Origin: the human T2T-CHM13v2.0 reference genome, Homo sapiens
Assembly (NCBI RefSeq): GCF_009914755.1
Contig: NC_060938.1
Direction: 5' to 3' (one strand)
Length of the DNA: 64,000 nt
The position numbers were made by a program, and so were the translations under genes. Of the stretch, positions 30,184-31,313 are shown in pieces. Below the pieces are notes generated by a model. That model was given only the letters and a program-made list of their open reading frames with translations, searched no databases and was not told the origin of the DNA. Numbering within the stretch: position 1 is the first letter of the stretch; every line of letters starts with the position of its first letter.

Positions 30184-31007
30184 AGAAGAACAACAGCAAA
30201 AACTGAAGGAAAAAAAGGAGGTAAGACCTATCTGTAACTAGCTACTCATATTCAGGAAACAGAGGCAAAAACTCAATTGCTCTTGCATATCATTTACTGA
30301 ACTCTGAACCAAAAAAATACATTCACGACCTAGACACTGGAATGTAGTGGCGGCTACTCAATTTTATATGCAGATTTTAACAACAACAAAAATACAGAAG
30401 AATTTATCCTTGGTTTTTCAATTACTAAAACACTAAATTTATCATATATATGTATATATACAGGTGTATATATACATATATATACACATACACACACATA
30501 TGTATATATACATATGTGTGCGTATGTGTATATATGTGTGTATGTGTATATATACTATATATACACGTGTGTATATACTAGTGTATATACACTATATATA
30601 ATGGTATATATATATGTGTACATGTGTATTTATGTGTGTATGTGTATATATAGTGTATATACACTATATATATGGTATATATATGTGTATATGTGTATAT
30701 ATACTATATATACGTGTATGTGTATATATACACCTGTATATATATATGATAAATTTAGTGTTTTAGTAATTGAAAAACCAAGGATAAATTCTTCTGTATT
30801 TTTGTTGTTGTTAAAATCTGCATATAAAATTGAGTAGCCCCCACTACATTCCAGTGTCTAGGTCGTGAATGTATTTTTTTGGTTCAGAGTTCAGTAAATG
30901 ATATGCAAGAGCAATTGAGTTTTTGCCTCTGTTTCCTGAATATGAGTAGCTAGTTACAGATAGGTCTTACCTCCTTTTTTTCCTTCAGTTTTTGCTGTTG
31001 TTCTTCT
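30184..31007. repeat. long near-perfect inverted repeat (arms 30184-30450 / 30741-31007) around a TA/CA/TG microsatellite spacer
   Basis: Base-by-base comparison: 267 bp with one mismatch (30351/30840); extends to 30476/30721 with a 6-nt indel. Confidence 0.97.
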
Positions 31008-31020
31008 GGGCAACAGAGTG

Positions 31021-31313
31021 AGCCTGGGCAACAGAGTGAGAATCTACCTCAAAAAAAAAAAAAAAAAAAAAAAAAAATATATATATATATATATATACAC
31101 ACACACACACGCACACACACACACATATATGTGTATATATACGTATATATACACATATATGTGTATAAGTGTATATATACATACACGTGTGTGTGTGTGT
31201 GTGTGTGTGTATATATATATATATATATATATATATATATATATATATATATTTTTTTTTTTTTTTTTTTTTTTTTTTTTTTTGAGATAGATTCTCACTC
31301 TGTTGCCCAGGCT
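31021..31313. repeat. second inverted repeat: Alu 3' end + A27 + (TA)n(CA)n / (TG)n(AT)n + T32 + Alu 3' end
   Basis: agcctgggcaacagagtgagaatctacctc versus the reverse complement of 31284-31313 (1 mismatch in 30); perfect 44-bp palindrome at 31121-31164. Confidence 0.93.

What the first reader, a model, noticed from the sequence alone, without database searches (positions are those of the whole stretch)
30184..31313. Double fold-back scar: A-M-A'-B'-M-B architecture built on a palindromic TA/CA microsatellite
Seen: flank A (30184-30476), microsatellite M, inverted A' (30721-31007), junction, inverted Alu tail B' (31006-31077), microsatellite, then the original Alu B (31252-31566). Each microsatellite holds a palindromic tip: 30478-30535 (58 bp, 1 mismatch) and 31121-31164 (44 bp, perfect). 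Inference: an ancestral A-M-B allele broke at the cruciform-forming TA-rich repeat. Both ends then self-primed or were hairpin-capped and copied their own flank, like giant P-nucleotides, before being joined. The order A'B' is not what a simple inversion or a DUP-TRP/INV-DUP would give. Arms differing at only 1 of 267 bases imply a very recent origin or ongoing arm-to-arm gene conversion. Established: long near-perfect inverted repeats with short spacers are rare and unstable in the human genome, and TA repeats form MUS81-cleavable cruciforms.
Basis: partly seen in the sequence, partly recalled or inferred. Interest (0 to 1): 0.85.

Follow-up and report, generated by a model that had tools for sequence, protein, structure and literature searches.

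The report
Double fold-back scar, PTPN21 intron
Inside an intron of the human PTPN21 gene, a TA/CA-rich simple repeat carries mirror-image copies of the DNA on both of its sides, joined back to back, which looks like the repair scar of a single break in which each broken end copied its own flank; it is a tidy natural example of a known kind of repair error, not a functional element.

Summary
Arm A (30184-30475) recurs inverted as A' (30722-31007), with 1 mismatch in 263 gapless bases, one 6-nt TA-tract indel and 23 further perfect bases. A occurs nowhere else in CHM13. A' abuts a 15-nt templated insertion, then B' (30 nt of the neighbouring Alu's tail plus A27), which mirrors B across microsatellite M2.

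One switch-and-return template switch, an inversion, a triplication or a transposon cannot give the order A-M-A'-B'-M-B. The most economical reading is one event in which two facing 3' ends each folded back, copied about 290 and 170 nt of their own flank, and were joined at 2-nt microhomologies.

Three details need correcting:
- The left spacer (246 nt) is not palindromic. It is TG-rich on one strand, and the 58-bp "tip" is not the centre of symmetry. A large-loop snap-back fits it; a hairpin cap does not.
- The arm divergence allows any age from 0 to about 20 My.
- A 246-nt spacer is not the unstable short-spacer class.

No outgroup, second human assembly or reads were available, so the ancestral A-M-B allele is inferred, not seen. 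I class it as a long, two-sided variant of known fold-back insertions. Interest is moderate.

The parts
30184..30475 (+). Arm A: the original, single-copy intron sequence. It starts 122 nt from coding exon 29892-30061, and its right edge runs into the TA-rich start of the microsatellite.
   Evidence: alignment to A'; only 2 genome matches, A and A'; 30184-30434 not masked.
30476..30721 (+). M1 spacer: a 246-nt TA/TG-rich array that is not palindromic. Its only CA-rich block is 30477-30506; the rest is TG-rich on the + strand and made of diverged direct repeats.
   Evidence: G vs C per 30-nt bin; periods 98, 51 and 37, 68-81% matches; multibranch DNA fold, z = -6.
30478..30535 (.). 58-bp near-palindrome (one mismatched pair) inside M1, centred at 30506.5. 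It is not the centre of A/A' symmetry (30595.5).
30722..31007 (-). Arm A': the inverted copy of A (286 nt). It has 1 mismatch (30840 vs 30351) and lacks 6 nt of TA tract.
31006..31020 (-). 15-nt templated insertion at the A'/B' junction, identical to the reverse complement of 31296-31310 in Alu B. Its first two bases (CT) are shared with the end of A' (2-nt microhomology). Together with the start of B' it forms an 18-nt direct repeat of 1.9 copies.
   Evidence: TRF 31006-31040, period 18, 100% matches; exact identity and junction context.
31021..31077 (-). B': the inverted copy of the last 30 nt of Alu B (29 of 30 identical) plus A27, which mirrors the Alu's T32.
   Evidence: pair I24: 57 nt, 98%.
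31078..31251 (.). M2: a roughly symmetric microsatellite, (TA)n (CA)n | (TG)n (TA)n. The left half is C-rich and the right half G-rich. The halves differ by a 23-nt gap (5 bases of the homopolymer plus 9 TA units) and 9 mismatches.
31121..31164 (.). Perfect 44-bp palindrome, containing two adjacent copies of the self-complementary 10-mer GTATATATAC at its centre. This is the likely fold point of the right-hand end.
31252..31566 (-). B: the original Alu on the minus strand, with its T32 tail (A-tail on the minus strand) facing the microsatellite. 'Alu' is a recalled name, supported by the many copies of its tail motif in the window.
   Evidence: (masked 30968-31401 and 31405-31596).

Best explanation
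This is a repair scar from one complex event and has no function of its own.

Inferred ancestral intron: A, then a long TA/TG microsatellite grown from the A-tail of a minus-strand Alu, then the Alu (A-M-B).

Proposed steps (all inferred from the product):
1. The microsatellite, which is built from self-complementary units such as GTATATATAC, broke or stalled two converging forks. This left two 3' ends facing each other.
2. The left 3' end is TG-rich (about 30706-30721). It snapped back onto the only CA-rich block upstream (30477-30501), leaving a loop of roughly 200-250 nt, and copied about 290 nt of its own flank, giving A'.
3. The right 3' end folded at the palindromic GTATATATAC doublet. 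It copied about 170 nt: the repeat, the T-tail and 30 nt of the Alu. This gave the left half of M2 plus B'.
4. The two extended ends were unwound and joined at a 2-nt microhomology (CT/AG), after one abortive 15-nt round of copying from the other end. This is the behaviour of alternative or polymerase-theta-type end joining, or of polymerase-delta foldback synthesis captured by end joining.

Net result: about 421 nt (30722-31142) was inserted and nothing was visibly lost.

Later slippage changed repeat lengths: A27 vs T32, a 9-TA-unit gap, and a 6-nt TA-tract indel.

Shown: the anatomy, the uniqueness of A, the junction features and the asymmetry of M1. Inferred: the ancestral allele, the single-event origin, the break, and the enzymes.
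For: - Arms and junctions.
- A and A' are the only copies in the genome.
- B' derives from B and not from another Alu: 1 mismatch to B, versus 3 or more for all of the 35 other Alu-type sites in the window.
- A' and B' abut with no microsatellite between them, which is what joining two extended ends gives. Two independent insertions would have to hit the same nucleotide.
- The junction has 2-nt microhomologies and a 15-nt direct templated copy of sequence next to the join.
- The M1 spacer is one-stranded in composition and its internal direct repeats are only 68-81% alike. It is therefore older than the 99.6%-identical arms and was probably the loop, not a product of the event.
- Identity steps up from 22 of 25 in the putative primer-landing region (30477-30501 vs 30730-30706) to 23 of 23 and 262 of 263 in the copied part.
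- GTATATATAC occurs 9 times in the window, all in M1 or M2, with 0.05 expected.
- M2 is symmetric and folds as one hairpin: -125.9 kcal/mol against -27.8 +/- 4.0 for shuffles.
- Experimental precedent in yeast (PMC11724301, abstract and passages): a resected end folds back on a 10-nt imperfect inverted microhomology with a 41-nt loop, polymerase delta extends it, the new DNA unwinds, and the other end captures it with a median 2-bp microhomology.
- Snap-back SD-MMEJ is described in PMC5728401 (passages).
- Large-loop hairpins after long resection are noted in PMC7999016, section 3.1.2.
Against: - No allele lacking A'/B' was seen, because no other human assembly, ape genome or reads were available. 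The ancestral state and the one-step origin are inferred.
- The copied tracts (at least 286 and about 170 nt) are roughly ten times longer than those in the experimental papers read here: mostly 5-34 bp for local foldback insertions, and about 2-35 bp for alt-EJ (PMC11724301).
- The left side needs a loop of over 200 nt, plus the skipping of one 10-nt unit at the start of copying.
- The two halves of M2 differ by 9 mismatches and a 23-nt gap. Either copying was imprecise or much slippage followed.
- The product cannot tell a two-ended break from two converging forks, or from one strand switching template four times.
- The target-site-duplication evidence that A once touched the Alu tail is only a shared 5-mer, TCATA.
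Confidence: 0.5

Rival explanations
1. Serial replicative template switching (FoSTeS/MMBIR type). One nascent strand stalled in the microsatellite and switched template four times. It switched to the opposite strand and copied A backwards. It jumped about 0.7 kb ahead and copied 15 nt of the Alu. It re-primed 3 nt further on and copied back through the tail and repeat. It then flipped at the palindromic centre and resumed normal synthesis.
For: - The junctions are the same: 2-nt microhomologies and a 15-nt abortive copy, which are also hallmarks of iterative low-processivity switching.
- Iterative template switches that give inverted structures appear in the search listings (PMC11293582, PMC10766183; abstracts only).
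- The four-point-model paper says multiple successive rounds are possible but were not modelled (PMC5453318).
Against: - It needs four switches by one strand.
- It needs a template ahead of the stalled fork (B and the right half of M2) to be copied leftwards exactly back to the point of departure.
- The two-end model gives the abutting A'/B' and the two fold points with fewer assumptions.
- No datum here separates the two models decisively.
Confidence: 0.25
2. Cruciform cutting left two hairpin-capped ends. These were nicked hundreds of bases from the tip and unfolded, like giant P-nucleotides, and were then joined.
For: - The centre of M2 is a perfect 44-bp palindrome with no spacer.
- Cruciform cutting of AT-rich palindromes, giving hairpin ends, is described in PMC7999016 (passages).
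- TA-repeat cruciforms acted on by nucleases appear in the abstracts listed.
Against: - This model predicts exact symmetry about each tip. The left spacer is 246 nt of one-stranded TG-rich sequence.
- The centre of A/A' symmetry (30595.5) is 89 nt from the 58-bp tip centre.
- The two tips do not have the same sequence, although a single resolved cruciform would leave the same palindrome at both ends.
Confidence: 0.07
3. Two independent inverted-duplication events (two ordinary template-switch mutations of mirror type) hit the same hotspot at different times.
For: - Each half on its own is the commonest repeat-creating type in the four-point model: 3-2-1-4 and its mirror made up 31% of high-confidence human-chimp events (PMC5453318).
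- The repeat is a plausible hotspot.
Against: The second insertion would have to land exactly at the end of the first. No microsatellite base lies between A' and the 15-nt insert plus B'.
Confidence: 0.08
4. Tandem duplication of A-M-Bs followed by inversion between the two quasi-palindromic repeat copies. Equivalently, a circularised A-M-Bs fragment re-integrated in inverted orientation.
For: Algebraically, X(YX)'Y is the observed order, and the A'/B' junction would be the duplication or circle junction (own reasoning).
Against: - It needs two steps.
- With equal breakpoints it predicts a symmetric M1, which is not seen.
- With unequal breakpoints it predicts that the left half of M2 carries the reverse complement of the long TG-rich M1 interior. 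The left half of M2 is only about 65 nt and mirrors the right half of M2.
Confidence: 0.05
5. Assembly artefact, such as a chimeric fold-back read built into the consensus.
For: Palindromes and TA repeats are hard to sequence, and no reads could be inspected here.
Against: - The structure is internal, 1.1 kb long, and flanked by normal unique sequence on both sides.
- The arms differ by substitutions and repeat-length changes: A27 vs T32, a 9-TA-unit gap, and a 6-nt indel.
- It has a microhomology junction with a templated insertion.
- A read-level fold-back would give one exact centre.
Confidence: 0.03
6. The arms are terminal inverted repeats of a DNA transposon or MITE.
For: None beyond the inverted-repeat shape.
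Against: - A has only 2 matches in the 3.1-Gb assembly, itself and A'.
- It is not masked as a repeat.
- One arm is contiguous with the exon-flanking intron sequence.
Confidence: 0.01

Closest known systems
Local foldback (snap-back) inverted insertions at double-strand breaks (yeast Break-Ins assay, PMC11724301; SD-MMEJ snap-back in Drosophila, PMC5728401)
   Same: - An inverted copy of sequence next to the break.
- Priming at an imperfect inverted microhomology with a loop (41 nt in yeast).
- Unwinding, then capture by the other end with about 2 bp of microhomology.
- Abortive rounds that leave short templated inserts.
   Different: - Here both ends folded back, not one.
- The tracts are about 290 and 170 nt, against mostly 5-34 bp.
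- The left loop is over 200 nt.
- This is a germline allele in a human reference genome, not an induced break.
Short template-switch mutations, four-point model (PMC5453318)
   Same: A reverse-complement copy of nearby sequence creates new inverted repeats and hairpins. Each half taken alone is the type 3-2-1-4 or its mirror.
   Different: A single switch-and-return cannot give A'-B'. This locus needs two non-contiguous reverse-complement fragments plus a 15-nt third piece. The authors state that they did not model successive rounds.
Large fold-back inverted duplications (constitutional inv-dup-del, PMC3907307; yeast foldback inversions, PMC7467729; both seen as search listings only)
   Same: Fold-back of a resected end at short inverted repeats, and a spacer between the arms.
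   Different: Those events are one-ended and kilobases to megabases long, with a terminal deletion or dicentric intermediate. This one is a 0.4-kb interstitial insertion with both ends rejoined.
Palindromic AT-rich repeats (PATRRs; PMC7999016, section 4.3)
   Same: B'-M2-B is a spacer-less, AT-rich, intronic palindrome of 293 bp. It has less AT-rich ends and strong single-hairpin potential.
   Different: - AT content is 76% (83% from homopolymer to homopolymer), not above 90%.
- The arms are imperfect outside the 44-bp core.
- No translocation or hypervariability data are available.
ODIRA inverted triplications and DUP-TRP/INV-DUP (PMC10766183, PMC4689423, PMC11293582; search listings only)
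   Same: Template switching at short inverted repeats, on two sides of a replicating region, gives inverted junctions.
   Different: Those give three copies, with the middle one inverted. Here A and the Alu tail are each present twice, and the inverted copies sit back to back between the originals.

Membership tests
Fold-back / snap-back templated inverted insertion at a break | The inserted DNA is the reverse complement of sequence immediately flanking the insertion site. | tested here: met
   A' equals the reverse complement of A (262/263, 23/23, and one 6-nt indel). B' plus the left half of M2 mirrors B plus the right half of M2.
Fold-back / snap-back templated inverted insertion at a break | An inverted microhomology near the 3' end can prime the copy. 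| tested here: inconclusive
   - Left: 30706-30730 pairs with 30477-30501 at 22 of 25 bases, but the sequence is low-complexity and one 10-nt unit is skipped.
- Right: a self-complementary GTATATATAC doublet sits at the centre.
Fold-back / snap-back templated inverted insertion at a break | A capture junction with 0-5 bp of microhomology and/or short templated inserts. | tested here: met
   2-nt CT/AG microhomology and a 15-nt templated insert. The comparison values come from PMC11724301.
Fold-back / snap-back templated inverted insertion at a break | A pre-event allele without the insertion exists. | not testable with these tools
Single switch-and-return template switch (four-point model) | The product is L..1 plus one contiguous reverse-complement fragment plus 4..R. 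| tested here: not met
   Two reverse-complement fragments lie in the order A' then B'. In the inferred ancestor these are non-contiguous and would read B'-M'-A' if copied as one fragment (model from PMC5453318).
PATRR | A near-perfect palindrome of several hundred bp without a spacer. | tested here: inconclusive
   B'-M2-B is 293 bp with a perfect 44-bp centre. The arms show 118 matches, 9 mismatches and one 23-nt gap. The DNA hairpin has z = -24.
PATRR | More than 90% AT, as defined in the review PMC7999016. | tested here: not met
   75.8% AT over 31021-31313 and 82.8% over 31051-31283.
PATRR | Hypervariable in the population and a site of recurrent translocation. | not testable with these tools
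   No population or translocation data. Papers holding PTPN21 with 'inverted repeat' numbered 1 and with 'palindrom' numbered 3; none was relevant by title or abstract.
DNA transposon / MITE with terminal inverted repeats | Multiple dispersed copies of the arms in the genome. | tested here: not met
   2 matches in CHM13, both at this locus.
Inverted triplication (ODIRA, DUP-TRP/INV-DUP) | Three copies of a segment, with the middle one inverted. | tested here: not met
   A is present twice and the Alu-tail 30-mer twice at this locus. The order is original, inverted, inverted, original.

The most novel reading that the evidence does not exclude
The locus is a germline record of a two-ended fold-back. 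Both ends of one break in an Alu-tail TA/CA microsatellite snapped back, copied hundreds of bases of their own flanks, and were joined by microhomology. This is far longer than fold-back insertions seen experimentally. In one step it created both a 286-bp near-perfect inverted repeat and a 293-bp spacer-less AT-rich palindrome. If so, this is a concrete route by which PATRR-like palindromes are born from Alu tails in the human germline.
Probability: 0.4. Interest if true: 0.6.

Novelty: new variant of a known kind. Interest (0 to 1): 0.45.

Why it matters
If the one-event reading holds, this is a clean natural specimen whose junctions are still legible. It would show three things:
- Fold-back priming in the human germline can run for hundreds of bases.
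- It can happen at both ends of the same lesion.
- It can tolerate a loop of more than 200 nt.

It also ties three things together in one locus: TA-rich microsatellites, which are known to form cruciforms and to break; Alu tails, as the source of such repeats; and the birth of long AT-rich palindromes.

It suggests a simple search rule for long-read pangenomes: X-M-X'-Y'-M-Y around TA repeats. That search would measure how often this happens.

For the gene itself, the likely consequence is modest. The PTPN21 pre-mRNA carries two adjacent long hairpins, beginning 122 nt upstream of a coding exon's acceptor site. This is a plausible substrate for RNA editing, but the splice signals are untouched.

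Tried and rejected
- Transposon/MITE reading: rejected, because A has only two genome matches.
- Known RNA family: none between 29000 and 33000 at Rfam gathering scores.
- Single template switch, simple inversion, and triplication models: rejected on the order and copy number of the parts.
- Palindromic M1 with the 58-bp tip as fold point: rejected on strand composition and centre position.
- Circle re-integration, or duplication plus inversion: worked through by hand and found to need extra deletions.

Genome-wide recurrence:
- A pattern for A8(TA)4 ... (TA)4T8 found 20 sites, which is a lower bound, against 0 for the reversed control.
- All 19 other sites were fetched and compared. None has a high-identity flank palindrome abutting the homopolymers.
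- L020 has two different Alu tails abutting, with alignment score 72 over 94 nt (low identity).
- L003, L021 and L022 have weak Alu-to-Alu matches 26-330 nt away from the core.
- This is a narrow probe of one half of the architecture, not a survey for X-M-X'-Y'-M-Y, which the tools cannot run.

Target-site duplication of the Alu as proof that A once touched the tail: only a shared 5-mer, so inconclusive.

Literature:
- No paper linking PTPN21 with inverted repeats or palindromes.
- No paper in the listing (10 papers holding 4 of the 5 terms, 9 listed) describes a two-sided fold-back by title or abstract start.
- These searches cover open-access text only. Supplementary tables were closed, and catalogues of template-switch events or structural variants in them could list this locus.

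Not done:
- No comparison with GRCh38, pangenome haplotypes, apes or reads, because none was available.
- No sampling of random genome regions for the background frequency of such repeats.
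Full report
**What is there.**
- Arm A (30184-30475) is ordinary intron sequence. It begins 122 nt from coding exon 29892-30061 of PTPN21.
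- A 246-nt TA/TG-rich spacer, M1, follows (30476-30721).
- Then comes A' (30722-31007), the reverse complement of A.
- Then a 15-nt insert (31006-31020, sharing its first two bases with A').
- Then B' (31021-31077): 30 nt of Alu tail plus A27.
- Then microsatellite M2 (31078-31251).
- Last is the minus-strand Alu B, with its T32 tail (31252-31566).

**How good the copies are.**
- 30184-30446 against 31007-30745 is 263 nt with one mismatch (30351 C vs G).
- A then has six extra TA-tract bases.
- 30453-30475 against 30744-30722 is 23 of 23 identical.
- B' matches B at 29 of 30 bases.
The latter is the longest perfect palindrome between 30400 and 31300.

**Not chance and not a repeat family.**
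- A has two matches in the 3.1-Gb CHM13 assembly, itself and A'. That search skips very common words and closed regions.
- 30184-30434 is not repeat-masked in the RefSeq copy.
- In the whole window, 35 inverted pairs with arms of 60 nt or more within 3 kb were found. This is the longest. The listed pairs outside the locus are 71-89% complementary, and I take them for Alu pairs.
- The first 20 bases of B' match 38 sites in the window within 3 mismatches. Of these, 35 are other Alu-type sites.
- The full 30-mer matches only B' (0 mismatches), B (1) and one other Alu (3). B' was therefore copied from B after B had acquired its own substitutions, so the event is much younger than the Alu.
- No Rfam family reaches threshold between 29000 and 33000.

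**Which models the order of parts excludes.**
- Under the four-point model, a single switch-and-return template switch inserts one contiguous reverse-complement fragment. Spanning both flanks, it would read B'-M'-A'. The rare two-repeat type 3-1-4-2 gives S1 S3' S2' S1' S3 (PMC5453318, passages). The observed A-M-A'-B'-M-B needs two separate reverse-complement fragments, so that model fails.
- Inverted triplication models (ODIRA, DUP-TRP/INV-DUP; search listings only) need three copies. Here there are two of each.
- Two independent insertions would have to share a breakpoint to the nucleotide, since no repeat base separates A' from the 15-nt insert and B'.
- Duplication followed by inversion, or inverted re-integration of a circle, gives the right order on paper. 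It predicts either a symmetric M1, or a left half of M2 that carries the reverse complement of M1's long interior. Neither is seen.

**The two halves are not alike.**
- M2 is symmetric: A27, (TA)n, a CA-rich block, the 44-bp palindrome, a TG-rich block, (TA)n, T32. As single-stranded DNA it folds into one hairpin of -125.9 kcal/mol, against -27.8 +/- 4.0 for 100 shuffles.
- The arms of M2 differ by 9 mismatches and a 23-nt gap.
- M1 is not symmetric. Apart from one CA-rich block (30477-30506), every 30-nt bin from 30507 to 30716 has more G than C.
- M1's internal direct repeats are only 68-81% alike.
- M1 folds into several small hairpins (-73.4 against -55.7 +/- 3.0).
- The centre of A/A' symmetry (30595.5) is 89 nt from the centre of the 58-bp tip.
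A hairpin cap opened far from its tip, which must give exact symmetry, does not fit that side.

**Most likely mechanism.**
- The TG-rich 3' end of the left fragment (about 30706-30721) can pair with the single CA-rich block upstream: 30477-30501 against 30730-30706 is 22 of 25.
- Beyond that point identity jumps to 23 of 23 and 262 of 263. This is the pattern expected if a pre-existing primer region is followed by newly copied DNA.
- The repeat is built from self-complementary units. GTATATATAC occurs 9 times in the window, all in M1 or M2, with 0.05 expected. Two adjacent copies form the centre of the 44-bp palindrome.
- I therefore read the locus as one lesion in an Alu-tail microsatellite that left two facing 3' ends. 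The left end snapped back with a loop of over 200 nt and copied about 290 nt. The right end folded at the palindromic doublet and copied about 170 nt.
- The extended ends were joined at a 2-nt microhomology after an abortive 15-nt copy of the partner end.
- Each step has a precedent in papers I read in part:
  - Yeast foldback insertions with a 41-nt loop, polymerase-delta synthesis, unwinding, and capture with a median 2-bp microhomology (PMC11724301, abstract and passages).
  - Snap-back SD-MMEJ (PMC5728401, passages).
  - Large-loop hairpins after long resection (PMC7999016, section 3.1.2 read in full).
- That TA repeats form cruciforms acted on by structure-selective nucleases is stated in abstracts listed.
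- The involvement of polymerase theta is my recollection of the field, not a result here.

**What weakens this reading.**
- No allele without the insertion was seen.
- The copied tracts are about ten times longer than in those experiments (mostly 5-34 bp).
- The left side needs a very large loop and the skipping of one 10-nt unit.
- The imperfect symmetry of M2 needs later slippage or sloppy copying.
- A single nascent strand switching template four times (FoSTeS/MMBIR type) would leave the same product. I cannot separate the two models, and give them 0.5 and 0.25.
- An assembly artefact is unlikely (0.03). The arms differ by substitutions and repeat lengths, and the junction has repair-type features. 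But reads were not available.

**Age and stability.**
- One difference in 263 bases gives 3.8 My (95% range 0.1-21 My). Two differences in 293 bases give 6.8 My (0.8-25 My). Both use a recalled rate of 0.5e-9 per bp per year.
- If the copying polymerase made the errors, the age could be near zero.
- 'Very recent or ongoing conversion' is therefore possible but not required.
- The review read here states that risk rises with longer, more similar arms and a shorter or absent spacer (PMC7999016). On that basis A/A', with 246 nt between the arms, is not in the hazardous class.
- B'-M2-B, which has no spacer, resembles a PATRR. It fails that review's criterion of more than 90% AT, at 76-83%.

**Recurrence.**
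- A genome pattern for A8(TA)4 ... (TA)4T8 within 20-300 nt found 20 sites, a lower bound, against 0 for the reversed control.
- All 19 other sites were examined. None has a high-identity palindrome extending beyond the homopolymers.
- This probes only one half of the architecture.

**Known or new.**
- I found no paper on this locus. PTPN21 with 'inverted repeat' gave 1 paper and with 'palindrom' gave 3 papers, none relevant.
- No description of a two-sided fold-back appears among the 9 listed papers.
- These are open-access full-text searches only. Supplements were closed and may hold catalogues that include the locus.
- I class it as a new variant (two-sided, long-tract, large-loop, germline) of a known kind of repair product.
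- Interest is moderate (0.45). It is a neat specimen and a usable search template, but it is a single intronic scar without evident function, and its key premise, the A-M-B ancestor, is untested.

Noticed in passing
G000 genome-wide; loci L003-L022: A8(TA)4 ... (TA)4T8 occurs at 20 or more sites, against 0 for the reversed pattern. Among the 19 sites other than this locus:
- 15 have an Alu-like flank (alignment score above 100 to Alu B) on one side only;
- 1 has Alu-like flanks on both sides;
- 3 have none or a weak match.
The homopolymer run on the non-Alu side (8-37 nt) is unexplained. It could be a miniature fold-back copy of the A-tail across the TA repeat, or an ordinary composition effect. 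The pattern itself selects for both runs, so no enrichment test was possible.
   Followed up: partly
window 30062-31400, minus strand: The PTPN21 pre-mRNA is predicted to fold into two adjacent long hairpins (MFE -835.8 kcal/mol over 1339 nt). They begin 122 nt upstream of the acceptor of coding exon 29892-30061. The pyrimidine tract and AG lie outside the repeat. The hairpins are a plausible RNA-editing substrate; this was not checked against expression or editing data.
   Followed up: partly
window 30968-31007 vs 30184-30223: The RefSeq soft-mask covers the outer 40 nt of A' (masked block 30968-31401) but not the mirror-image 40 nt of A. This is probably an extension of the masked Alu/low-complexity block and not a real repeat.
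   Followed up: no
window 31408-31565 and 32967-33124; also 56890-60497: There are ordinary diverged inverted Alu pairs: 74% at 1401 nt apart, and a cluster of pairs at 71-89% between 56.9 and 60.5 kb.
   Followed up: no
window 31812-31844: A separate (AC)16.5 microsatellite lies about 250 nt beyond the 5' end of Alu B.
   Followed up: no
window 29981: The predicted transcript XM_054375289.1 has its 5' end at 29981, inside exon 29892-30061, about 200 nt from arm A. No link to the repeat was examined.
   Followed up: no
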